Sequence record: NC_017969.1
DNA from: Escherichia phage vB_EcoS_AKFV33
Direction: 5' to 3' (one strand)
DNA length: 64,000 bases
The notes under the pieces were generated by a model, which did no database searches, had not been told where the DNA came from, and was given only the letters and a program-made list of their open reading frames with translations. Positions 51,735 through 61,471 of this stretch are shown piece by piece. A program made the position numbers and the translations under genes. Numbering within the stretch: position 1 is the stretch's first letter; each line of letters starts with the position of its first letter.

Positions 51735-52403
51735 ATGCCAAAGAAATTGAGTACGGAAGAAGTCAATAATAGACTTTTAGATAGAGGAATTGTCTTAGTT
51801 GGGGAGTATATAAATGCTAATACTAAGGCTAGTTTTAGATGTTCAGTGGGGCATGTATGGGAAACAAAACCATCAGTGTTACTTAACATGGGATTTGGAT
51901 GTCCATATTGCAGTGGGAAAGCTAAACTAACTCCTGAAGTAATAAACCAGGAATTAAGTAATAAAGGAATACAAATAGTAGGCAAATATGTAAATAATAG
52001 AACTCCGACCCTTTTTAGGTGTGAAAATGGCCATGAGTGGAATACTACTATTAATGCAGTGAAAAATTTAGACAGTAATTGCCCGATATGTAAAAAAGAA
52101 GGCAGGTCTAAAACAAAACTATATGTTATGTATAGTGAATCTTTAGGTACTAAGATTGGTATCTCTAATAAACCGGGAACTAGATTAGGAAAAATTAGCA
52201 GAAATGCTAATATACCAGATCTTAAATTATTTAAAGTATTTGATATCTTAGATTATACTAAGTGCCGTAAAATTGAGAAAGCAGCACATGAGCATTTTAA
52301 AGAATGGAACTGCTATTATAAGGATTTTGATGGTGCTACAGAGTTTTTTGATATTGAACCAGATACAGCAGTAAAATTTATTGAGGAAAATATTAATGAC
52401 TGA
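51735..52403 (+). CDS. T5orf172-domain protein (GIY-YIG-like superfamily) with N-terminal zinc-ribbon repeats; homing-endonuclease-like
   Basis: 222 aa; repeated FRCSVGHVW..CPYC and FRCENGHEW..CPIC units; call from domain recollection. Confidence 0.55.
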   Translation: MPKKLSTEEVNNRLLDRGIVLVGEYINANTKASFRCSVGHVWETKPSVLLNMGFGCPYCSGKAKLTPEVINQELSNKGIQIVGKYVNNRTPTLFRCENGHEWNTTINAVKNLDSNCPICKKEGRSKTKLYVMYSESLGTKIGISNKPGTRLGKISRNANIPDLKLFKVFDILDYTKCRKIEKAAHEHFKEWNCYYKDFDGATEFFDIEPDTAVKFIEENIND

Positions 52404-54243
52404 AGCTGAATTATTCGATAATATCTATGGTATTACAGATGGCTTTGCAGACTCTACCCTAAAGCATAATAATGCTAATAAACCCTCTGAGCGTTTTCCT
52501 ACTCAGCGGGATATGATTGCAGGTGAACTAAGTAAATTTTTAACCTTGCAAGAAATGCCCGTACAGATCAGGACAGCACACTCAATCGGAGATATTCATT
52601 TCCATGACTTGGATTATTCCCTTTTGGGCATGACTAACTGTTGTCTAGTAGCTCTGGAAGATATGCTAAAAAATGGTATGAAGGTTGGTAATGCTGAAAT
52701 TAGCACTCCAAACTCTATCACTACTGCGGCGGCTATTACTGCTCAGATTATCACTCAGGTTAGCTCCCATCAGTATGGTGGTACTTCTGTAGATCGCCTT
52801 GATGAAGTATTAGCCCCTTATGTTCGTAAATCCTATGACAAAAATCATGCGTTTGCAAAACGTTGGACTAAGGATGAAGCCAAAGCATCAGTAATGGCTA
52901 CGGAGATGACTGAAAAAGAAGTCTATGACGCTTGTCAGGGTTTAGAATATGAAATCAATACCATGTTCAACTCTAATGGTCAGAGTCCATTTATTACCTT
53001 TGGTTTTGGTCTAGGAACTTCCTGGGAAGCACGTCTAGTACAGAAAGCAGTACTGAAAGTACGCATGGATGGTTTAGGTATCAATAAACGTACAGCTATC
53101 TTCCCGAAACTGGTATTTGTACTTCGCGATGGCGTAAATATGAAACCAGGAGATGTTAATTATGACATCAAGAAGTTAGCTATGAAATGTACTGCTGAAC
53201 GTATGTATCCAGATTATATCAGCTATGACAAGGTTGTAGAAGTTACTGGAGACTATAAAGTTTCTATGGGCTGCCGTTCATTCCTAGCTGCTGCAGAAGA
53301 TGGTGAAACTGCTGGCCGTAATAACTTAGGTGTTGTTTCTGTAAACTTGCCTAGAATTGCTATCGAAGCTGAAGGAAATATTGATCTATTCTTTGATTTG
53401 CTTGAGCTACGTGTGGATACAGCGTTAAAAGCATTGGAGTGGAGAGTTGATCGCTTAAAATACATCCAAGCTAAAGCTGCACCCATCCTCTATATGTCAG
53501 GAGCCTTTGGGTTACGCTTGGAGCCTGATGAATATGTATTCGATCATTTCTATAACCGTGCTTCTGTATCTCTAGGGTATATTGGTTGCCATGAAATGCT
53601 ACAGTTCATGTTCGGCAAAGATGTAGACACAATGTCAGAGACCTGCATCAAGTTTGTTCAGCGTGTATTGCAGTACATGCGAGATAGAGTCGATCAGAAG
53701 AAGGAAGAGACTAAGTTAGGTTATAGCCTGTATGCTACACCGTCAGAGTCCCTATGTGATAGGTTTTGCCGTTTAGACCGTGAATATTTCCCAGAGCATG
53801 AAGATATTCTGTCTAAAGGATACTACACTAACTCGCACCACCTTGATGTAGAGCGTAAAGTTGCTCCTAACGTGAAATTTGATTATGAATCTAACTTTAC
53901 GCCTATTGCTTCTGGTGGGTGCATTTCCTATGTAGAACTACCGGATATGAAACGATTCCCAGATGCACTGGAATGGGTTATTAATTATGCTGCTAGTAAG
54001 GTTCATTACTTCGGTATTAATACCCCAGTGGATTCTTGTGGTAAATGTGGATTCTTAGGTGAAACAATAGCATCCGAAGATGGATTCAAGTGCCCTATCT
54101 GTGGTAATCATGACCCCGAAACTCTTGAAGTAACTCGTCGAGTTTGTGGGTATCTTGGAAATCCAGGTGCTCGTCCGTTTAACCCAGGAAAACAACATGA
54201 GGTTATGGGCAGGGTGAAACATCAGGATATTCGAGCTAAGTAA
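52396..54243 (+). CDS. nrdD: anaerobic ribonucleoside-triphosphate reductase (class III)
   Basis: C-terminal glycyl-radical motif RVCGYLG and Cys-rich zinc site; ATG at 52396 with SD GAGG (track starts at a TTG). Confidence 0.85.
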   Translation: MTEAELFDNIYGITDGFADSTLKHNNANKPSERFPTQRDMIAGELSKFLTLQEMPVQIRTAHSIGDIHFHDLDYSLLGMTNCCLVALEDMLKNGMKVGNAEISTPNSITTAAAITAQIITQVSSHQYGGTSVDRLDEVLAPYVRKSYDKNHAFAKRWTKDEAKASVMATEMTEKEVYDACQGLEYEINTMFNSNGQSPFITFGFGLGTSWEARLVQKAVLKVRMDGLGINKRTAIFPKLVFVLRDGVNMKPGDVNYDIKKLAMKCTAERMYPDYISYDKVVEVTGDYKVSMGCRSFLAAAEDGETAGRNNLGVVSVNLPRIAIEAEGNIDLFFDLLELRVDTALKALEWRVDRLKYIQAKAAPILYMSGAFGLRLEPDEYVFDHFYNRASVSLGYIGCHEMLQFMFGKDVDTMSETCIKFVQRVLQYMRDRVDQKKEETKLGYSLYATPSESLCDRFCRLDREYFPEHEDILSKGYYTNSHHLDVERKVAPNVKFDYESNFTPIASGGCISYVELPDMKRFPDALEWVINYAASKVHYFGINTPVDSCGKCGFLGETIASEDGFKCPICGNHDPETLEVTRRVCGYLGNPGARPFNPGKQHEVMGRVKHQDIRAK

Positions 54244-54250
54244 GCTAATC

Positions 54251-54285
54251 AGCCGGGTTGCTAGTCGACCTGGCTTTTATTTTAT
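54251..54285 (+). terminator. rho-independent terminator after nrdD
   Basis: AGCCGGG/CCTGGCT hairpin followed by TTTTATTTTATTT. Confidence 0.5.
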
Positions 54286-54314
54286 TTGCTTTCAGCCAAA
54301 AATTTATATATAAT
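54286..54314 (+). promoter_or_regulatory. sigma70-type early promoter (TTGCTT-n17-TATAAT)
   Basis: A-tract, -35 TTGCTT, -10 TATAAT upstream of gene 54344. Confidence 0.55.
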
Positions 54315-54343
54315 AGATTTATAAATTTGAGGAGGTAGGAATT

Positions 54344-54724
54344 ATGACTTTAAAACCGTATATAGTGGAGTCTACGTGTGGCAGTTTCCACCTGGGTGTG
54401 GATGATATTGCTGAGGCTGTCTTTGCTGCCACAGGTGATTACTCTCATATAGGGGGTGCTGGGTACCCCACCGTTATTGGCGATTGGGTGGAAACAAATC
54501 TAGATGTGTCGCCTTATAACCCGTATTGCTTGTTTGATGAAGACAGAGATGAGGTAAAGTGTAATCTTGAATTTGTGTATAATAGAGTATTAAAAGTATA
54601 CCAACGTAGTCCCGAGGGGTACGAAGATATTACTTGTAGTATTAAACAGTATCTTAAAGATGTATACTCTAGTTTTTCTGACGAAGGCCTAGAAACAGTT
54701 GCAGTGGAGTTTAATAATGACTAA
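54344..54724 (+). CDS. hypothetical protein
   Basis: 126 aa ORF with SD GGAGG. Confidence 0.45.
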   Translation: MTLKPYIVESTCGSFHLGVDDIAEAVFAATGDYSHIGGAGYPTVIGDWVETNLDVSPYNPYCLFDEDRDEVKCNLEFVYNRVLKVYQRSPEGYEDITCSIKQYLKDVYSSFSDEGLETVAVEFNND

Positions 54725-54923
54725 GAATGTGAAACACCTTAAATATCGCTTAATCTATAACGGACGTATGGAAACAGAAGATCTGGCCCAATTAGCTATT
54801 AATTCTAATGAGGTTATGGTGCGTGCGCTAGCAATTGAAAAGTTGCGTGCTTCTTATGAAAATCATGTTATGGAACTAGAGGAGAAACTGTATGGACTTC
54901 TTGAATCAGAGTCTAAAAAGTAA
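54717..54923 (+). CDS. hypothetical protein
   Basis: ATG overlapping upstream stop. Confidence 0.4.
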   Translation: MTKNVKHLKYRLIYNGRMETEDLAQLAINSNEVMVRALAIEKLRASYENHVMELEEKLYGLLESESKK

Positions 54924-55086
54924 TCCAGAAAACATGCTTATTGAGCAATGGAACTTTGGTTATAATGCCGGTATAGCTACTTGTATTGCTAGATTGGATA
55001 TGCTTATTAAGCAAGAAAAGGTACGCCCGGAGGAAGCAATTTTACTCCGAAATATTATCGAAGGATTTAAGCAAGGAATCGTATAG
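54892..55086 (+). CDS. hypothetical protein
   Basis: 64 aa ORF with SD GAGGAG. Confidence 0.4.
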   Translation: MDFLNQSLKSNPENMLIEQWNFGYNAGIATCIARLDMLIKQEKVRPEEAILLRNIIEGFKQGIV

Positions 55087-55904
55087 TGCGTAGATTAATT
55101 ATTATTAGCGGTGCAGGTTTGAGTGTTGAAAGTGGTGTACGAGCTTTTCGTACTGATACTGCTAGTGGTAAAGCACTGTGGGATGATTATGATCTAGAAG
55201 AAGTATGTAATATTCATGCCTTTCGTGGTAATTTTTATCATAAAACCCATATGTTTTACAACAAGCGTCGTGAAGAGCTAAAAACTGTTGAACCCAATCT
55301 TGCACACTTGCGTATTGGTGAATGGTATAAACAATATCCAGGTCAAGTAGTAAACTTGACTACCAACGTTGATGACCTTATTGAGCGTGCTGGCGTTCCA
55401 CATAGTGACATTCTGCACATTCACGGATATTTAAAAGAGGTTGTTGTAGCTGATAGCTACAATAGTAGCAATAAACGGATTATTGATGTAGGGTATAATT
55501 CTATTGATCCAGATGATTATAAATGGGTTAAACCTAATGTTATCTTCTTTGGTGAGGTTGCTCCTGCCTATAAAACAATGTATGAGGTTTTTGATGGTAT
55601 CACCAGTCATGATATGATCATCATTGTTGGGTGCTCTAACCAAGTAATTAACTTCTACTGGGAGCTATTTCCTATTCTGAATCTTACTGCTGCAAAACTT
55701 ATGGTAGTTAACTATTACGATAGTGCAGTAGCTATGGAACCAGGCTATCAGGGCATGACTCGTAGTGAAATGTATCAGTTAGAAGAACGTGGTATTCCTT
55801 ACTGGAGTAAAGGTGCTGTGGATGCCTTTAGTGATCCCGATTTTATTGCTCGTGTGGAAGCTCATCTAGAAGGTAAACCCTATGTCCAACAAAAGCATGT
55901 GTGA
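55086..55904 (+). CDS. Sir2-like NAD-binding protein (sirtuin family) without zinc-ribbon cysteines
   Basis: 272 aa, GTG start; motifs GAGLSVESGVRAFR, TTNVDDLIERAG, HIHG, KPNVIFFGE, IIVGCS. Confidence 0.7.
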   Translation: MRRLIIISGAGLSVESGVRAFRTDTASGKALWDDYDLEEVCNIHAFRGNFYHKTHMFYNKRREELKTVEPNLAHLRIGEWYKQYPGQVVNLTTNVDDLIERAGVPHSDILHIHGYLKEVVVADSYNSSNKRIIDVGYNSIDPDDYKWVKPNVIFFGEVAPAYKTMYEVFDGITSHDMIIIVGCSNQVINFYWELFPILNLTAAKLMVVNYYDSAVAMEPGYQGMTRSEMYQLEERGIPYWSKGAVDAFSDPDFIARVEAHLEGKPYVQQKHV

Positions 55905-56044
55905 TCTTTTAGTGTGGCCGGACGGTAGTTGGTGCTACCGTTTCGAATTTGCTACCGATGATTTCTCATGGAAGAGTGATGATTTCTGTGTTATCTATGA
56001 AGATACAGCAGAATGGAAAGAGTTCCTTATTAAGGAGGGAGAAT

Positions 56045-56230
56045 ATGGTGAAGAAGATTTTTAAGGGTATCTGGAAAGGTCTAGTATGGTTTGTCAACCT
56101 AATCGGTATGATTACCATTTATTCTCTGTTCCTATCTGTTATGTGGGGTAAAGGTGAATTGAAGGTTCCAGTTCCTTTTACTGATGAAGTTAAAGTCTGG
56201 ACGTGGGATGCTACTGGTGGAAATAAGTAA
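56045..56230 (+). CDS. small membrane protein
   Basis: ATG with SD AGGAGGGAG; hydrophobic product MVKKIFKGIWKGLVWFVNLIGMITIYSLF... Confidence 0.35.
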   Translation: MVKKIFKGIWKGLVWFVNLIGMITIYSLFLSVMWGKGELKVPVPFTDEVKVWTWDATGGNK

Positions 56231-56723
56231 TACTCCTGTGATTTTCCTGGATATTGATGGGGTGCTCAATTCGAGCATCTCCCACCATCATGCACCTGAT
56301 GATGAAAAGATTTTCTTTGGGAGTGACTGGGTTTTCAAACCGCTTCTCAAGGCTTTTCAAGATTTTATTCGTCCTTCCTCGATAATGATTGTTGGGGTAT
56401 CCTCATGGTTCTCTGTCAGGAATGAGATGGAGAACGTTCAGATTATGACCGGATTAGGTCTTATCGATCGTTTTCTTGGTACAACGGATTTTACTGGTGG
56501 TGGATTATCTAGGGGTAATTCTGTTCTTCGCTTCGTTGAAAAGCATAAGCTCAAACATTGGTGTGTACTGGATGACGCTGGTGCTATGATGTATCAGTAT
56601 CCAACGGTTATAGTCAATGGTAGAACTGGAATAAATCTTCAAGATTTAAAAGCTGTTAGCTATATGCTAGAATTTAGCCCAGATCTTGAAATGTGTAAAT
56701 CCTTACAACAATTTAAGGTGTAA
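56184..56723 (+). CDS. HAD-like hydrolase (phosphatase)
   Basis: 179 aa; HAD motif I VIFLDIDGVLN. Confidence 0.5.
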   Translation: MKLKSGRGMLLVEISNTPVIFLDIDGVLNSSISHHHAPDDEKIFFGSDWVFKPLLKAFQDFIRPSSIMIVGVSSWFSVRNEMENVQIMTGLGLIDRFLGTTDFTGGGLSRGNSVLRFVEKHKLKHWCVLDDAGAMMYQYPTVIVNGRTGINLQDLKAVSYMLEFSPDLEMCKSLQQFKV

Positions 56724-56725
56724 AT

Positions 56726-57154
56726 ATGTTCAATAATGTATTCTCTAAAGAAGCTAACCCAATTTTGGTTAACTTTTGGCGTACTCTCCCAGCTAGCCTG
56801 TATAATGAGGCTATTAACTCTTTGAAAATATGGTGTGAGAATAACGAAATCTCCTTTGCTTTTAAAGATGATATTGATGAGGCTCCCTGTATTGGTTTAA
56901 TTGTGCAGGTAGAGGAGGGTCTTGAAGAGATTGTGGGCTGGAAAGAGTTAGACGAAATGGGCTTAGTTTTTGCGTTAAATTATAAACTGTTTATGCCTGC
57001 TAAGCATCGCCTTGTTGTTAACTATAAAACTAGTGAATCTCCTGGTTTTCAGGTTAATGAACGTTATGGTTGGTCTTACTCACCGGAAGAAGTAAATGAG
57101 GGGATTCAGAAACTTCGACGTTTCGGGTATATGATCCCGGGTTTAACTGCTTAA
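56726..57154 (+). CDS. hypothetical protein, paralog A
   Basis: 142 aa; shares DDPCIG..ALN..LF.P and C-terminal G-x-x-I/V-PGL with the next ORF. Confidence 0.5.
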   Translation: MFNNVFSKEANPILVNFWRTLPASLYNEAINSLKIWCENNEISFAFKDDIDEAPCIGLIVQVEEGLEEIVGWKELDEMGLVFALNYKLFMPAKHRLVVNYKTSESPGFQVNERYGWSYSPEEVNEGIQKLRRFGYMIPGLTA

Positions 57155-57163
57155 GGAGGCAGG

Positions 57164-57556
57164 ATGGAACAAGTATATTGGCGTCAGATTGACCCTAGTT
57201 TGGTGAAACGTGCGGAGAAGCTGCTACAACGTTGGTTGGGGGTAAGGCAAGCCTCCTTCTCTTTTCCGGAGCAGCAAACGGATGATCCATGCATTGGCGT
57301 TTTCCTGTCTGGATATGCCGGGGAATGGGAGATGGATTGGAATGAATTGTCCGCTATGAGTTTAATTGTTGCCCTAAATTTCTCTTTGTTCCATCCACGT
57401 GGTTTGGCCATATGTCGTGTGCCTGATGACGGTTGTTCGCCCCATCTTTTACAGGTGGAAGATGATATTTGGGAGTACACTCCAGATATTCTCAAAGAAG
57501 CTAAAGAACAATTAAACCGTGTTGGGATTTATGTTCCAGGCCTAAATGATGAATGA
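57164..57556 (+). CDS. hypothetical protein, paralog B
   Basis: 130 aa; tandem paralog of the previous ORF. Confidence 0.5.
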   Translation: MEQVYWRQIDPSLVKRAEKLLQRWLGVRQASFSFPEQQTDDPCIGVFLSGYAGEWEMDWNELSAMSLIVALNFSLFHPRGLAICRVPDDGCSPHLLQVEDDIWEYTPDILKEAKEQLNRVGIYVPGLNDE

Positions 57557-57695
57557 TTTTTATTAGCTGAAATTTGTAATCCGGGCTATTAGTGCTCGGA
57601 TTATTACATAATCTTTCCAGTCGATTGACAGTCAAAATAAATTGTCGTTGACAATTTGGATGGATTATGTAATAATATATGTATTGGAGGTGAGG

Positions 57696-58148
57696 ATGTC
57701 ATTCACACAGCAAGAACTTTTAGATAACTTCCGATATGAAGATGGTAAGTTATTTAGAACTACAGGAAGAAATGCAGGGAAAGAATGTTGTGTTTCTACG
57801 GGTAACGGATATTATCGTATATCTCTAGGGAATAGGACTATGCTTCGGCATAGAGCAATATTTTTAATGCATCATGGATACTTACCTGATTTAGTAGATC
57901 ATGTGAATACTATAAAAGGTGATGATCGTATTGAAAATCTTAGAGAGCAGACAGTGTCCGGTAATCTAAGAAATATCAAATATAAGAAAGGAATGCATGT
58001 TTACCCTTCTGGTAGTAAGAACTGGCAAGTAGTATTTACTATTAACCGTAAACGTATAGTTAAAGGAACATATGACAACTATGAGGTTGCATGTTCTATG
58101 GCCAAGATGTTTAGAGGTCAATTATACGGTAGGGAATCAATCCAGTAA
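57696..58148 (+). CDS. HNH homing endonuclease-like protein
   Basis: ATG at 57696 with SD GGAGGTGAGG; HNH-type motif (YYRISLGNRTMLRHRAIF..DHVN..N) with AP2-like C-terminus. Confidence 0.65.
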   Translation: MSFTQQELLDNFRYEDGKLFRTTGRNAGKECCVSTGNGYYRISLGNRTMLRHRAIFLMHHGYLPDLVDHVNTIKGDDRIENLREQTVSGNLRNIKYKKGMHVYPSGSKNWQVVFTINRKRIVKGTYDNYEVACSMAKMFRGQLYGRESIQ

Positions 58149-58155
58149 AATTTCA

Positions 58156-58186
58156 TTTGCAAGGGAGTATTATTTTATAGTATAAT
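58156..58186 (+). promoter_or_regulatory. sigma70-type early promoter (TTTGCA-n19-TATAAT) at the start of a ~0.5 kb leader
   Basis: -35 and -10 hexamers with A/T-rich upstream region. Confidence 0.45.
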
Positions 58187-58681
58187 ATTCCCATAAATGA
58201 GAGACATTAGTAAAAATTGATTTTGCTAATTTTTCTTGTTTACAATCCGCGATACGGAACAGTTAGGCTGCCCCATTAAGGGTTGTTTTAACTATTACTA
58301 GTGTTTATATTGCATTAGTTAATCTTCAATTAAGTGATCTGTGTACCCTGAATTCGGAAAGGTAAATCCAAACCGTGCATATTTAGCTCGTTATATAGGC
58401 AGAGCTTTATATGGGGGTGCGAACGAAAAGAGCAGCGAATGGCGGCACGTACAGTAGTCACCTACCAATAGGATAGTGAGGACAAATAGAATCGGCTTAG
58501 CGGCCAATGACCTAGGTTCTATTCTGTATATGAGCGAAGAGAGCACAGCACTGAGATATGATAACTTATTCATATTGTTTGATGATAATTGATGTTTACG
58601 TAAATAGTAGTAATAGTTGTTCTATTCTTTCTGAATAGTCCTAAAGAAAAGATTTCTATTAATCAACACAGGAGTATTGTT

Positions 58682-61471
58682 GTGTTTTCTATCCTCCAAG
58701 GTCACGCCGGGTTTTCTCGTGATTTAGCAACAGGTATTTGGCGAGAAATCAAAGCGGAAGATTATACCTTTGCCAAACGATTCTCGAAAGAGCATCCAGA
58801 AGGTAAACCAGCTTCTATGCCCTTCAAATTTGATGTAATAGAAGAGCACGACCCACAAAGCCTTGCCGAAATGTTACCACTTATGAGACGTTTAACGTCT
58901 GACCCTCATATCGTTGCGGTACGAGGTCGATGTCTTGCACCTAAAAATAATGTGCGACGTAAGAAAGGTAACTTTAATGTATCCAACCCTAGCAATATTA
59001 TTGCTATGGACGTGGATGGTATCCTAGATACCGGTGGGTATGACAAGTTTAATCTTGTAGGTATGGCTCGACATATTATTAGGATGTTAAATAGTATTAG
59101 TGAGGATATGTTTCCTCTTGATGCAGGGTTTATCGCTCATGCATCGTCTTCGGCTGGGCTAAAACCAGGTATCCGAATGCACTTAATACTAGAATCTAAT
59201 GTTAAGGTAACTCAGGGTCAAATCAAATTCTTATTTACATCTATCAACGAAAGTAGTAGACAAAAGTATGGCTTTGATATTGCCGACTTAGCTTATTACT
59301 CTTCCGTACAGCTCCATTATTTTGCAGATCCGTTATTTACCGATGGTATAGTAGATCCGTTTAAAGCGGAGAGTAAGCCACGTCTGGTATATGTTAAAGG
59401 TTCGAAGGTAAATTTGCCCAATAATCTGGTTGACTATGAAACAACTAGAGGGGAATTTAAGGAAGAGTTTTATTCTTTACTTGATCAAATTAAAGGCAAA
59501 AAGATTGCTTCTGATAAAGTAGAAGAAACCATCAGCGAATTGGAAGAAGCCGAGGATGGGGTGTACTTGCGTATTATCCCCAAACTCTACCATAGAGCAT
59601 TAGAGGATGGTGTTGATTTCGCATGGCTAGAACGTGAGATTAAACCCGCTTTATCTGAATATATTGCAACTAAAGATAACAGTCGTAATATTCAAGATTA
59701 CTTTAATAACGGTCGTAAGCAGGCTCTCAAAGCGTTTGTTAATAATTCTAAACGTGAGATCCCATTAAATCTGAAGGGTGTTCCACTCAAGAAATTAGAA
59801 GTGGATTCTCCACCAGAAGTTCCGTACCTGAAGATTAACATTGTGCCTCCAAAAGGCCATATAACATTTGTTAAGGCAAGTCTTGGTACTGGTAAGACTA
59901 CGGCAGTAACTAAATGGCTGGACGCAGGTGTTCTTCCTGGCAACTTTTTAGCAGTTACAAATACTAGAGCACTGGTATCTTCAAACGCTAAGAAATTTAG
60001 CGCAGGACAATATGATAAGTCTGTAGATATGCTCAACTTTAAACGTGGAGCTATTGATCGTATGTCTACAACTATCCACTCTTTGCATAAGTTCAAAAGT
60101 TTTATTGGTCAAATAGATACCATTTTTATTGATGAATGTGATGCTGTAATGAATGATCTATTATTCGCACCTGTTGTTAAGCAACGTCGCGAATGTATTC
60201 AAGTTCTACGTGACATCCTCATGACAGCTAAAACTGTAATTCTATCTGATGGGGATATTAGTGCAGAAACAATTGAAGCATATGGTTCTCTAATTGATTT
60301 TGATAAACCAGTAGCATTTTATAATCATCACCGTAAGATGCTGTCAAAAGCTCATGCTTATGAGTTCCCGGATGAATCCAGTATTTGGGTTGCACTTCAG
60401 ACCTCTCTAGAGATGGGTGAGAAATCTATCCTAGTATCTGATTGTGGGCCGGATGAACTGAATGAGAAGGGCATGGCGTTGCGTCGTAATACGGGTGCGT
60501 TAGTTAAGGAAATCCACTCAAACTCTACGTCTGATGTAGATATTCGACGTATTCTGGATTACACAACTAATGAGCTAATTGACCAACAAATTGATTGCTT
60601 ATTATGTAGTCCATCCGTAACTAGTGGTGTTGACTTCAACTATTTTGATAACGTATTCGTTATTACTAGAACCAGCAACCAAGCGCCAAACATGCGTTTC
60701 CAAGCAATCAGGCGCGACCGTGGTGCTCAGAACATTTATTATTTTATTGATAAATCTACGAGTGGATTCTCCGCAGGTTCTGAACAATATAATATTGATG
60801 AGGGTTGGCTGGAGTTAGCACAGCAATTATACGCACGTCGTAGGGAGCTGGAATCTAGGAATTATACTAGTACCTTACGTTATTACTTGCTTGATCAGGG
60901 TGCAACTATTGATATTTTCAGTGAAAGCTGGGGAACTATCGAAGGTGCAGGCAAAGAGTATACAGAAGAGCGAATCAAAGCCATTTTGTATTCAACTCCT
61001 GATTATTGCGCTCCACGTCATGCGGATGCGTATGAAGCTAAACTACTTCTTGTTCGCTACTATCATCTTGAGTCTATTAAAGATGTAACAGTTGAGCATG
61101 TTGAACAATATATCAAGGATAAACCTAATGATCGGGCTGCATTCTTCCATAAAATGCACGAGATGTTCTGGGAAGATATTAAGAAGTGTTCAAATGTCAC
61201 TATCAAACCATTCATAGAAGCTCTGAAAGGTAAGAAGAAAGATTTCTTCCTTAAAACAGGTCAGAGTGCTAACCCAAAATATGCCAGAATGTATCTTGGT
61301 ATGATGGGTATTGGTAAAGATATGAACACGGAGAATATTGTAGACTGGTACAGAACTTATTGTAAAATCGAGTGTATGCCAATCCCATATAAGTTTATGA
61401 CTGATGAGGAGAAACATATGCATGATGAAGCAATGGCAGAGCTAGGTGCTAGAAATGACAGTGAAGAATAA
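58682..61471 (+). CDS. large SF2-type helicase/ATPase; putative replication origin-binding/initiator helicase
   Basis: 929 aa, GTG start with SD AGGAG; Walker A ASLGTGKTT and DExD-type FIDECD. Confidence 0.7.
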   Translation: MFSILQGHAGFSRDLATGIWREIKAEDYTFAKRFSKEHPEGKPASMPFKFDVIEEHDPQSLAEMLPLMRRLTSDPHIVAVRGRCLAPKNNVRRKKGNFNVSNPSNIIAMDVDGILDTGGYDKFNLVGMARHIIRMLNSISEDMFPLDAGFIAHASSSAGLKPGIRMHLILESNVKVTQGQIKFLFTSINESSRQKYGFDIADLAYYSSVQLHYFADPLFTDGIVDPFKAESKPRLVYVKGSKVNLPNNLVDYETTRGEFKEEFYSLLDQIKGKKIASDKVEETISELEEAEDGVYLRIIPKLYHRALEDGVDFAWLEREIKPALSEYIATKDNSRNIQDYFNNGRKQALKAFVNNSKREIPLNLKGVPLKKLEVDSPPEVPYLKINIVPPKGHITFVKASLGTGKTTAVTKWLDAGVLPGNFLAVTNTRALVSSNAKKFSAGQYDKSVDMLNFKRGAIDRMSTTIHSLHKFKSFIGQIDTIFIDECDAVMNDLLFAPVVKQRRECIQVLRDILMTAKTVILSDGDISAETIEAYGSLIDFDKPVAFYNHHRKMLSKAHAYEFPDESSIWVALQTSLEMGEKSILVSDCGPDELNEKGMALRRNTGALVKEIHSNSTSDVDIRRILDYTTNELIDQQIDCLLCSPSVTSGVDFNYFDNVFVITRTSNQAPNMRFQAIRRDRGAQNIYYFIDKSTSGFSAGSEQYNIDEGWLELAQQLYARRRELESRNYTSTLRYYLLDQGATIDIFSESWGTIEGAGKEYTEERIKAILYSTPDYCAPRHADAYEAKLLLVRYYHLESIKDVTVEHVEQYIKDKPNDRAAFFHKMHEMFWEDIKKCSNVTIKPFIEALKGKKKDFFLKTGQSANPKYARMYLGMMGIGKDMNTENIVDWYRTYCKIECMPIPYKFMTDEEKHMHDEAMAELGARNDSEE

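What the first reader, a model, noticed from the sequence alone, without database searches (positions are those of the whole stretch)
54344..58148. Zinc-less Sir2-like protein in an accessory module with a HAD-like hydrolase and a tandem paralog pair
ORF 55086-55904 carries the sirtuin Rossmann motifs (GAGLSVESGVRAFR, TTNVDDLIERAG, HIHG, KPNVIFFGE, IIVGCS) but lacks the CxxC...CxxC zinc ribbon of classical deacetylases. Zinc-less Sir2 domains are typical of NAD-hydrolysing defence effectors, so a phage-borne copy could act on NAD+ or ADP-ribose pools. It sits between nrdD and the helicase next to a HAD-like phosphatase (56184-56723), two clearly paralogous unknown ORFs (56726-57154, 57164-57556) and an HNH endonuclease, which looks like an inserted accessory block.
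Basis: partly seen in the sequence, partly recalled or inferred. Interest (0 to 1): 0.65.

Follow-up and report, generated by a model that had tools for sequence, protein, structure and literature searches.

The report
T5-type zinc-less phage sirtuin operon
This is the conserved early operon of T5-like phages, encoding a CobB-like sirtuin without its zinc site beside an RNA-repair-type phosphatase; both were already annotated and discussed in print, and their biochemistry is still untested.

Summary
ORF 55086-55904 is a true sirtuin (Pfam SIR2, 87 bits). It keeps the NAD-binding and catalytic residues and has no zinc-binding cysteines. Next to it lie a HAD_SAK_2 phosphatase, two DUF7415 paralogs and an HNH gene.

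Most of the interpretation does not hold.
- **Not a defence-type sirtuin.** The protein is closest to E. coli CobB and the SIRT5 class and matches no defence-system model.
- **Not an inserted block.** The window is a T5-like phage and these genes are T5.100-T5.107. The order nrdD, Sir2, (HAD), DUF7415, helicase is conserved across Demerecviridae. Only the HNH gene and the first small ORF vary.
- **Already published.** Sir2 has been annotated in T5 since 2005. Iyer et al. 2022 described the Sir2 plus SAK-type HAD pair in phage SP15 and predicted a Tpt1-like, NAD-dependent RNA-end repair role.

I confirmed that orthologous sirtuins in rV5-like, Mydovirus-type and Erwinia phages sit with RNA ligase, a kinase and cREC or phosphoesterase genes.

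Sir2 and HAD are dispensable in the laboratory, shown by a natural deletion in DT57C and a null knock-down in T5.

The DUF7415 pair looks separate and tracks dNTP-metabolism genes.

The function remains untested, and interest is low to moderate.

The parts
54251..54285 (+). Terminator-like hairpin plus T-run directly after nrdD. An AT-rich promoter region and a GAGGAGG ribosome-binding site follow, ahead of the first ORF.
   Evidence: T5 has a terminator and a promoter annotated at the same relative place.
54344..54724 (+). T5.100-like ORF (126 aa), function unknown, variable among T5-like phages.
   Evidence: phrog_11748. Near-identical DNA is found in only 58 phage records, against 443 for the whole block.
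54720..54923 (+). T5.101-like small ORF (about 67 aa), function unknown.
   Evidence: phrog_5236 matches from residue 8 of the listed ORF. The SP15 and T5 gene models agree.
54892..55086 (+). Small ORF (64 aa), function unknown. Its stop overlaps the Sir2 start.
   Evidence: phrog_5827. 89% identical in Epseptimavirus S114.
55086..55904 (+). Phage sirtuin (T5.102 ortholog, 272 aa). CobB-like class III type, catalytic residues intact, no zinc-binding cysteines.
   Evidence: Pfam SIR2 at 87 bits. CobB 1s5p at E 9e-18. AlphaFold model with pLDDT 89; Foldseek best hit CobB, E 2e-17, TM 0.84. Clade alignment. Cys count. dN/dS 0.11-0.12.
55882..56064 (+). T5.103-like small ORF (60 aa), function unknown.
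   Evidence: phrog_5116. 98% identical in S114.
56045..56230 (+). T5.104-like small ORF (about 61 aa) with a hydrophobic stretch, a putative membrane peptide.
   Evidence: Internal ATG of the ORF listed at 55949-56230. Its position matches the 183-nt genes in SP15, S114 and T5.
56208..56723 (+). HAD-superfamily phosphatase of the HAD_SAK_2 family (T5.105 ortholog).
   Evidence: Pfam PF18143, E 2.9e-20. Invariant D15-x-D17-G-V and D122-D123 across T5-like, My1 and Aeromonas phage homologs. dN/dS 0.05-0.07.
56726..57154 (+). DUF7415 paralog 1 (T5.106 ortholog, 142 aa); Pfam reports two DUF7415 stretches.
57164..57556 (+). DUF7415 paralog 2 (T5.107 ortholog, 130 aa).
   Evidence: Pfam PF24187, E 1e-30. 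32% identical to paralog 1, E 1e-20. T5.107 scored 'Fit' in the CRISPRi-ART screen.
57648..57676 (+). Promoter-like site (TTGACA-17-AATAAT with a TG) ahead of the HNH gene.
   Evidence: Best match in the scan, 11 of 12. The total number of such sites does not exceed the shuffled controls, so this is only suggestive.
57693..58148 (+). Free-standing HNH homing endonuclease. This is the only clearly mobile element in the interval.
   Evidence: Pfam HNH_3. Present in 41 of about 443 related records, often >=99% identical. Absent from T5, S114 and DT57C at this site. GC 0.33-0.34.

Best explanation
**What is shown.** The interval is the conserved early operon of T5-like phages (equivalent to T5.100-T5.107), with a mobile HNH gene added at its end. 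ORF 55086-55904 is the T5.102-type phage sirtuin. It has a CobB-like (class III) sirtuin fold with all NAD-binding and catalytic residues. The zinc-binding cysteines are missing in the sampled phage clade, while the small beta-sheet module is kept.

**What is inferred.** The enzyme binds NAD+, releases nicotinamide and transfers ADP-ribose. Its most likely target is a phosphate on a broken RNA end. The RNA 2'-phosphate would attack NAD+. [quoted passage not shown] This is the same two-step chemistry as Tpt1/KptA, and Iyer et al. 2022 proposed it.

The adjacent HAD_SAK_2 phosphatase, which carries the same DxD-type HAD motif as the T4 Pnkp phosphatase domain, would remove 3'- or cyclic phosphates, or dephosphorylate the ADP-ribose by-product. 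Together the pair would heal tRNA or mRNA ends cut by host anticodon nucleases. That is a conditional counter-defence function that is dispensable on laboratory hosts.

**Separate parts.** The two DUF7415 proteins are a separate unit linked to dNTP metabolism. The HNH gene is a homing endonuclease.
For: **Identity**
- Pfam SIR2.
- CobB and SIRT5-class best matches by sequence and by structure.
- Invariant GAGxS, F21-R22, Y58-x-x-R61, N94, D96, H113 and KPNV-FF-E across 31 clade members.

**Operon and synteny**
- Terminator after nrdD and tight or overlapping ORFs.
- T5 has a promoter and terminator annotated around T5.100-T5.107.
- Same gene order in SP15, S114, My1 and Sugarland.

**RNA-repair link for this sirtuin clade (checked here)**
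- Vequintavirus JeffSchatz: RNA ligase, cREC_REC, Sir2 (58% identical), then a MazG-like gene; a kinase and a calcineurin-like phosphoesterase lie divergently.
- Raoultella phage Ro1: Metallophos ... RNA_lig_T4_1, cREC_REC, AAA_33, SIR2, all on one strand.
- Erwinia phage pEa_SNUABM_55: Metallophos, RNA ligase, AAA_33 ... SIR2.

**Other support**
- The HAD belongs to the 'Swiss Army Knife RNA repair' HAD family with an intact DxD motif.
- Published prediction for exactly this Sir2 plus HAD pair in SP15: PMC9503650, section 3.7.3.
- Sir2 and HAD are disrupted together in DT57C and neutral on knock-down in T5, as expected for a conditional function.
Against: - No biochemical data exist for any member of this clade.
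- T5-like phages lack the Rnl1-type RNA ligase that accompanies the sirtuin elsewhere. tblastn found it in only 14 Salmonella-phage records, against about 270-290 with the Sir2 block. No ligase or polynucleotide kinase is annotated in T5 at 1-50 kb or 53.5-60.5 kb. The pathway would therefore be incomplete in this phage.
- Sugarlandvirus has Sir2 without the HAD.
- The protein keeps features of a lysine deacylase: the class III Y-x-x-R, the FGE-type loop, and hydrophobic V95, F155 and V187.
- Distant HAD homologs sit next to thymidylate synthase in Aeromonas T4-like phages. The whole operon lies in the nucleotide-metabolism region, so its position alone does not argue for RNA repair.
- ECO340P2 has the sirtuin with no RNA-repair neighbours.
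Confidence: 0.4

Rival explanations
1. The phage sirtuin is a protein lysine deacylase like host CobB (deacetylase or desuccinylase). It would reset acylation of host or phage proteins during infection, and its neighbours would be unrelated to it.
For: - Best sequence and structure matches are CobB, Sir2Af1 and SIRT5.
- The Y58-x-x-R61 motif aligns with CobB Y92/R95 and is present in 121 of 121 clade members. From established knowledge, this motif binds the acyl carboxylate in SIRT5 and CobB.
- The FGE-type loop and the hydrophobic tunnel positions are conserved.
- This reading was proposed for KVP40-like phage Sir2 in PMC5107563.
Against: - The host already has CobB.
- Scores fall far below every NCBIfam CobB model cut-off (99 against 243 bits at best).
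- The zinc module that shapes the peptide cleft has changed across the sampled clade.
- The G of FGE is replaced by H, E, R or C in several members.
- Repeated, independent linkage to RNA ligase, kinase and cREC genes is not explained.
Confidence: 0.3
2. One reading: a zinc-less Sir2 that hydrolyses NAD+ or acts on ADP-ribose-derived molecules, changing NAD+ or signal pools in the phage's favour.
For: - It is zinc-less, as many defence-associated SIR2 NADases are (from established knowledge).
- It is conditionally dispensable.
- In ECO340P2 the sirtuin lies about 4 kb from an Acb2/Tad1-hairpin-like gene.
- The HAD could dephosphorylate ADP-ribose derivatives (an idea raised in PMC9503650).
Against: - No match to any PADLOC defence model.
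- No Pfam SIR2_2 hit.
- The top 50 structural matches are all deacylase-type sirtuins, with no defence-type SIR2 among them.
- No sensor or partner domain is present.
- NAD+ depletion would hurt a lytic phage.
Confidence: 0.12
3. The operon is part of the phage nucleotide-metabolism cluster. The HAD would be a nucleotidase, the sirtuin would carry out phosphoribosyl or NAD-linked nucleotide chemistry, and the DUF7415 proteins would be accessory factors.
For: - The operon sits beside nrdA, PhoH and nrdD.
- HAD homologs lie next to td in Aeromonas phages.
- The DUF7415 core is fused to dATP/dGTP pyrophosphohydrolase and to thymidylate kinase, and lies between nrdD and nrdG in Jiaodavirus.
- CobB was first found through a phosphoribosyltransferase-like activity (cited in PMC9503650).
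Against: - The DUF7415 evidence does not extend to Sir2. The pair is retained when Sir2 and HAD are lost.
- In other phages the sirtuin travels with RNA ligase, not with RNR genes.
- The HAD matches an RNA-repair family, not a nucleotidase family.
Confidence: 0.1
4. The whole interval is a recently inserted accessory island.
For: It is bounded by mobile endonuclease genes in this window: a T5orf172/DUF4379 ORF at 51735-52403 and the HNH gene at 57693-58148.
Against: - Synteny is conserved across Demerecviridae genera.
- 443 records carry the block.
- GC content is the same as the flanks, except over the HNH gene.
- Purifying selection acts on the genes.
Confidence: 0.03

Closest known systems
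T5.102 'Sir2-like protein' of phage T5, and the phage sirtuin clade with a SAK-type HAD neighbour typified by Escherichia phage SP15 (Iyer, Burroughs, Anantharaman, Aravind 2022, PMC9503650)
   Same: It is the same gene: 91.5% identical to T5 and 93% to SP15. The neighbours and gene order are the same, including the HAD_SAK_2 gene.
   Different: Nothing essential. This window also carries an HNH gene after the DUF7415 pair and a T5orf172-type endonuclease ORF upstream of nrdD. T5 has neither, and SP15 lacks the upstream ORF.
E. coli CobB and other class III sirtuins (SIRT5, Sir2Af1)
   Same: The Rossmann fold plus small domain, GAGxS, the FR loop, the catalytic His, the N and D of the TQNID-type motif, the Y-x-x-R motif and the FGE-type loop. 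Foldseek TM 0.84 to CobB.
   Different: No zinc-binding cysteines. TTNVD replaces TQNID. There is a C-terminal extension of about 60 residues. It is only about 25% identical and falls far below the NCBIfam CobB cut-offs. It is phage-encoded, and in most lineages it is linked to RNA-repair genes.
Tpt1/KptA RNA 2'-phosphotransferase
   Same: The proposed chemistry: NAD+-dependent removal of an RNA 2'-phosphate through an ADP-ribosyl intermediate. The proposed place in an RNA ligase, kinase and cyclic-phosphodiesterase pathway (PMC9503650; contexts).
   Different: The fold is unrelated (ART superfamily, not sirtuin). There is no sequence match and the activity is untested, so this is a working analogy, not membership.
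Defence-associated SIR2 NADases (ThsA, DSR1/DSR2, SIR2-HerA, SIR2-pAgo)
   Same: Sirtuin superfamily, NAD+ as substrate, no zinc ribbon.
   Different: No PADLOC or Pfam SIR2_2 match. No sensor domain or partner gene. Encoded by the phage, not the host. No defence-type SIR2 appears among the top 50 structural matches, which are all deacylase-type sirtuins.
Zinc-less Sir2/CobB of KVP40-like Vibrio phages (PMC5107563)
   Same: A phage sirtuin in which the loss of the zinc ligands has already been noted. It is 40-41% identical over about 76% of the protein.
   Different: A different phage family and a different gene context. That paper proposed deacetylation of host acetyl-CoA synthetase.
Phosphatase domain of T4 polynucleotide kinase-phosphatase (for the HAD gene)
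   Same: A HAD-superfamily DxD acyl-phosphatase motif and a predicted role at RNA 3' ends (established knowledge of T4 Pnkp).
   Different: It stands alone with no kinase domain. No solved-structure homolog is detectable by sequence. The substrate is unknown.

Membership tests
Sirtuin family (Pfam PF02146 SIR2) | Profile match above the curated threshold across the whole domain | tested here: met
   87.4 bits against a cut-off of 24; profile positions 1-178 of 180.
Sirtuin family (Pfam PF02146 SIR2) | NAD-binding GAGxS motif, FR cofactor loop, N and D of the TQNID-type motif, catalytic His in HG | tested here: met
   G9-A10-G11-x-S13, F21-R22, N94, D96 and H113-G114 are invariant in 31 clade members and align with CobB.
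Sirtuin family (Pfam PF02146 SIR2) | Four-cysteine zinc ribbon in the small domain | tested here: not met
   No Cys in the window protein between HG and KPNV. The 91 of 121 clade sequences that the motif pattern parsed have 0-2 Cys there. The beta-strands of the module are still predicted.
Sirtuin family (Pfam PF02146 SIR2) | NAD+-dependent deacylase or ADP-ribosyltransferase activity | not testable with these tools
   This needs enzyme assays. No published assay was found.
Class III sirtuins (CobB/SIRT5 type) | Y-x-x-R motif in the helical module; closest relatives are CobB and SIRT5 | tested here: met
   FYNKRR aligns with CobB FYNARR (Y92/R95). FY..RR is present in 121 of 121 homologs. Top structural hits are CobB, Sir2Af1 and SIRT5.
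CobB (NCBIfam models) | Score above the curated model cut-off | tested here: not met
   The best model, NF001753 (a subfamily model), scores 99 bits against a cut-off of 243. The equivalog NF040867 scores 89 against 320.
Defence-associated SIR2 effectors (ThsA, DSR, SIR2-HerA, pAgo-SIR2) | Match to defence-system SIR2 profiles or to Pfam SIR2_2 | tested here: not met
   No PADLOC family at E<=0.01. Only PF02146 is reported at E<=0.1.
Defence-associated SIR2 effectors (ThsA, DSR, SIR2-HerA, pAgo-SIR2) | Fused or adjacent sensor or partner (SLOG, HerA, pAgo, TIR) | tested here: not met
   It is a single-domain protein, and none of its neighbours has such a domain.
Phage sirtuin RNA-repair neighbourhoods (Iyer et al. 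2022, type 3, SP15-like) | Clade sirtuin gene next to a SAK-type HAD phosphatase gene | tested here: met
   Sir2 at 55086-55904 and HAD_SAK_2 at 56208-56723, separated by two small ORFs. The layout is the same in SP15.
Tpt1/KptA RNA 2'-phosphotransferase | Homology to the KptA/Tpt1 ART-fold family | tested here: not met
   No such Pfam hit; the fold is sirtuin. This is only a functional analogy.
Tpt1/KptA RNA 2'-phosphotransferase | NAD+-dependent removal of RNA 2'-phosphate | not testable with these tools
   This needs in vitro assays or complementation of a yeast tpt1 deletion.
HAD_SAK_2 (Pfam PF18143) | Profile match above threshold, with an intact HAD motif I (DxD) and motif IV (DD) | tested here: met
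   73.5 bits against a cut-off of 27.5. D15, D17, D122 and D123 are invariant in distant homologs.
DUF7415 (Pfam PF24187) | Profile match above threshold | tested here: met
   123 and 106 bits against a cut-off of 27, with two stretches in each protein.
Free-standing HNH homing endonuclease | HNH domain plus sporadic presence at a fixed site among close relatives | tested here: met
   HNH_3 at 43 bits. Present in 41 of about 443 related records, many >=99% identical. Absent at this site in T5, S114 and DT57C.

The most novel reading that the evidence does not exclude
The T5-type phage sirtuin is not a protein deacylase. It is a nucleic-acid enzyme that uses NAD+ to remove 2'-phosphates from broken RNA, a sirtuin-fold analogue of Tpt1. 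It works with the HAD phosphatase to undo tRNA cleavage by host anticodon nucleases. This would be the first sirtuin shown to act on RNA. The idea is already published as a prediction (PMC9503650), so the new part would be the experimental proof.
Probability: 0.3. Interest if true: 0.65.

Novelty: already known. Interest (0 to 1): 0.3.

Why it matters
As a genome finding it adds little. The gene has been annotated in T5 since 2005 and occurs in about 1000 phage records. Its zinc-less state and its HAD neighbour are both already in the literature.

It still marks an open biochemical question. A widespread, strongly conserved phage sirtuin clade has no tested activity, and a concrete hypothesis exists for it: Tpt1-like RNA 2'-phosphate removal. 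The hypothesis is cheap to test with standard enzyme assays, yeast complementation and phage plating tests. A positive result would extend sirtuin chemistry to RNA and add a counter-defence route against anticodon nucleases.

Two by-products may help annotators:
- DUF7415 appears linked to dNTP metabolism.
- PHROG 18062 wrongly spreads the label 'Sir2' onto the HAD gene.

Tried and rejected
- **Defence-type SIR2.** Tested with PADLOC and Pfam and rejected.
- **Inserted island.** Tested by synteny in five genera, by GC content and by counts of related records, and rejected.
- **HAD against solved structures.** No hit, either as a single sequence or as a five-sequence profile.
- **N-terminal domain of the DUF7415 protein P0177.** I suspected it was MazG-like, but Pfam, PHROGs and the PDB gave no support. 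The dATP/dGTP pyrophosphohydrolase fusion was instead found in other clusters.
- **Structured RNA.** Rfam gave no match at 54000-58800 on either strand. A repeat scan of the 58100-58720 spacer found only short, weak repeats.
- **Literature on experimental work.** Searches for work on phage sirtuins found none. The HIDEN-SEQ and transposon-mutagenesis preprints do not mention it.
- **A phage RNA ligase in T5-like genomes.** Not found. The T5 region beyond 60.5 kb was covered only by the collection-wide tblastn.

Full report
**What the window is**

Megablast of 54344-58148 finds 443 phage records, nearly all T5-like Escherichia and Salmonella phages. The best are vB_EcoS_MM-1 at 94.6% and SP15 at 91.9%. 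The flanking genes are nrdA, a PhoH-like gene, nrdD and the origin-binding helicase. In T5 itself the same genes are T5.100-T5.107, with a promoter and terminator annotated at either end. In the window, a terminator-like hairpin follows nrdD at 54251-54275. An AT-rich stretch and a strong ribosome-binding site then precede the ATG at 54344.

**Checking the observation**

The 272-aa ORF at 55086-55904 matches Pfam SIR2 (PF02146) over essentially the whole profile, at 87.4 bits against a cut-off of 24. Its best solved relative by sequence is E. coli CobB (1s5p, E 9e-18). In that alignment, the cysteine-bearing CobB segment faces a phage segment with no cysteine.

I aligned 31 diverse homologs. 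The invariant columns include G9, A10, G11, S13, F21, R22, Y58, R61, R62, T92, T93, N94, V95, D96, H113, G114, K149, P150, V152, F154, F155 and E157. No conserved cysteine lies between HG and KPNV. My motif pattern parsed 91 of the 121 sequences (the window protein plus 120 homologs). In those, that segment holds 0 cysteines in 62, 1 in 28 and 2 in 1. The zinc-less state is therefore a property of the sampled phage clade and not a defect of this copy.

An AlphaFold model built from the alignment is confident (pLDDT 89, pTM 0.88). It still shows three strands where the zinc ribbon would be. Foldseek against the PDB ranks CobB first (E 2e-17, target-normalised TM 0.84), followed by Sir2Af1, SIRT5 and Sir2Tm.

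The HAD gene matches PF18143 HAD_SAK_2. It has invariant D15-x-D17-G-V and D122-D123. The two unknown ORFs are 32% identical (E 1e-20), and both are DUF7415. The last ORF is an HNH_3 endonuclease.

dN/dS against T5 and SP15 is 0.05-0.12 for all four main genes. By comparison with the SP15, S114 and T5 gene models, the likely true starts are 56208 for the HAD, 54720 for the second small ORF and 57693 for the HNH gene. A 61-codon hydrophobic ORF at 56045-56230 was missed.

**Is it a defence-type sirtuin?**

No. Only PF02146 is reported at E<=0.1. No PADLOC defence model matches at E<=0.01. The closest structures are deacylase-type sirtuins.

The phage FYNKRR aligns with CobB FYNARR. Counting along the 6rxj chain, and using the A76G and Y92A mutant names in the PDB titles as anchors, these are CobB Y92 and R95. 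This is the class III Y-x-x-R motif, which from established knowledge binds the carboxylate of succinyl- or malonyl-lysine in SIRT5 and CobB. The motif is present in all 121 sequences.

The protein is nevertheless not a CobB equivalog, because it scores far below every NCBIfam cut-off.

**Is the block an insertion?**

No. The order nrdD, small ORFs, Sir2, small ORFs, HAD, DUF7415, origin-binding helicase is found in:
- SP15;
- T5;
- Epseptimavirus S114, which has no HNH gene;
- Myunavirus My1, which has Sir2, the HAD and one DUF7415;
- Sugarlandvirus, which has Sir2 and two DUF7415 genes but no HAD.

GC content matches the flanks, except for a dip to 0.33-0.34 over the HNH gene. The HNH gene is present in 41 records, many of them >=99% identical. 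The first ORF is present in 58 records. The block as a whole is in 443.

**What is already published**

- The T5 sirtuin has been annotated since the 2005 genome paper (cited in PMC5107563; T5 record).
- Loss of the zinc ligands in phage Sir2/CobB was noted for KVP40-like phages in 2016 (PMC5107563).
- Iyer, Burroughs, Anantharaman and Aravind (2022, PMC9503650, section 3.7.3) describe a distinct clade of phage sirtuins in three kinds of RNA-repair neighbourhood. [quoted passage not shown] They propose that the sirtuin removes RNA 2'-phosphates in the manner of KptA/Tpt1.
- I found no experimental test of this.

**Independent check of the context**

Orthologs of the window sirtuin sit with RNA-repair genes in other phage groups:
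- In Vequintavirus JeffSchatz, the ortholog (58% identical) follows an RNA ligase and a cREC_REC gene and precedes a MazG-like gene. A kinase (AAA_33) and a calcineurin-like phosphoesterase lie divergently.
- In Raoultella phage Ro1, the order on one strand is Metallophos ... RNA_lig_T4_1, cREC_REC, AAA_33, SIR2, DNA ligase.
- Erwinia phage pEa_SNUABM_55 has Metallophos, RNA ligase, AAA_33, three small genes, SIR2, one small gene, then DNA ligase.
- One lineage, ECO340P2, shows no such neighbours.

T5-like phages, however, lack this RNA ligase. tblastn finds it in only 14 Salmonella-phage records, against about 270-290 that carry the Sir2 block. No ligase or polynucleotide kinase is annotated in T5 at 1-50 kb or 53.5-60.5 kb.

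**Dispensability**

In DT57C both Sir2 and the HAD are reduced to a 273-nt remnant, while the DUF7415 pair is intact. In the CRISPRi-ART screen of T5 (PMC11879866, supplementary file 16), T5.100-T5.106, including Sir2 and the HAD, are 'Not Fit'. T5.107 is 'Fit' (p 0.02). The origin-binding gene T5.108 is also 'Not Fit', so the sensitivity of the screen is limited.

**Most likely mechanism**

What is shown: a catalytically intact NAD+-binding sirtuin and an intact HAD phosphatase, co-transcribed early, under purifying selection and conditionally dispensable.

What is inferred: the sirtuin transfers ADP-ribose from NAD+ to an RNA 2'-phosphate, and the His-activated ribose 2''-OH then expels ADP-ribose cyclic phosphate. 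This mirrors both the Tpt1 mechanism and the normal two-step sirtuin mechanism. The HAD would trim 3'- or cyclic phosphates or process the by-product.

I give this about 0.4. The clade-level context is strong, but the T5-type operon lacks a ligase and a kinase, Sugarlandvirus lacks the HAD, and the deacylase-type pocket residues are retained.

The rivals are a CobB-like protein deacylase (0.3), an NADase or ADP-ribose pool modifier (0.12) and a nucleotide-metabolism role (0.1).

**The paralog pair**

A profile search of 1.84 billion representatives finds 327 clusters, mostly 70-160 aa single-domain proteins. Three of the ten long hits I scanned are fusions. Two have a dATP/dGTP pyrophosphohydrolase domain directly followed by DUF7415, and one combines DUF7415 with thymidylate kinase.

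In Jiaodavirus T4-like phages, a 77-aa single-domain homolog lies exactly between nrdD and nrdG. In a P2-like prophage, one follows the replication gene A.

Together with its retention in DT57C, this points to a role in dNTP supply or replication and not to a role with Sir2 and the HAD. This is a contextual inference only.

**Verdict**

The 'defence-like NADase in an inserted block' reading is not supported. The locus is a known, previously discussed feature of T5-like phages whose biochemistry remains untested.

Noticed in passing
window 56726-57556; L002 3480-3713; proteins P0202, P0240, P0243: The DUF7415 core domain recurs with dNTP-metabolism genes. It is a stand-alone 77-aa ORF between nrdD and nrdG in Jiaodavirus. 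It is fused to dATP/dGTP pyrophosphohydrolase in two clusters and to thymidylate kinase in one. It always lies downstream of nrdD in Demerecviridae. No solved fold relative was found.
   Followed up: partly
window 56208-56723; T5 record T5.105 (L010 4089-4595): PHROG 18062 is labelled 'Sir2 (NAD-dependent deacetylase)' but matches the C-terminal half of the HAD protein. The label probably derives from the DT57C remnant annotated 'sir2 (defective)'. This explains why many records, including RefSeq T5, list two 'Sir2' genes.
   Followed up: yes
window 55086-55904 compared with L003 5001-5852: Against Epseptimavirus S114, the sirtuin is only 62% identical, while its immediate neighbours are 89-98% identical (nrdD 94, HAD 90). 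The window sirtuin is as close to the one in the far more distant phage My1 (64%). Deeply diverged sirtuin alleles therefore appear to be exchanged within a conserved frame. The alleles differ by an insertion of about 26 aa in the helical module and by a C-terminal insertion.
   Followed up: partly
L005 3980-4252 (Escherichia phage DT57C): This is a natural double loss. Only a 273-nt remnant joining a Sir2 fragment to the HAD C-terminus remains, while both DUF7415 genes are intact. The phage is viable and could serve as a ready-made mutant.
   Followed up: partly
window 51735-52403: A 222-aa ORF with DUF4379/CapR zinc-finger and T5orf172 (GIY-YIG-like) domains lies just upstream of nrdD in a low-GC stretch (0.29-0.32). 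It is absent at this site in T5, SP15, S114 and DT57C, so it is probably a second mobile endonuclease.
   Followed up: partly
T5.107, equivalent to window 57164-57556: In the published CRISPRi-ART screen of T5, DUF7415 paralog 2 is the only gene of this operon scored as contributing to phage fitness (p 0.02). Paralog 1, Sir2 and the HAD are neutral.
   Followed up: partly
L011 4468-4971 (Aeromonas phage Ah1): A distant HAD homolog (32% identical) lies directly after thymidylate synthase and three genes upstream of rnlA. This context fits either a nucleotide role or an RNA-repair role.
   Followed up: no
L014 1-215 (Escherichia phage ECO340P2): In this roughly 150-kb phage, the sirtuin has no RNA-repair neighbours. 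An Acb2/Tad1-hairpin-like gene lies about 4 kb upstream on the same strand.
   Followed up: no
window 58149-58681: A non-coding spacer of about 530 bp lies before the origin-binding helicase. It has promoter-like sites at 58157-58186 and 58217-58246. There is no Rfam match, and only short, weak repeats were found.
   Followed up: partly
window 56045-56230: A small ORF of about 61 codons with a hydrophobic stretch (GLVWFVNLIGMITIYSLFLSVMW) sits between Sir2 and the HAD.
   Followed up: no
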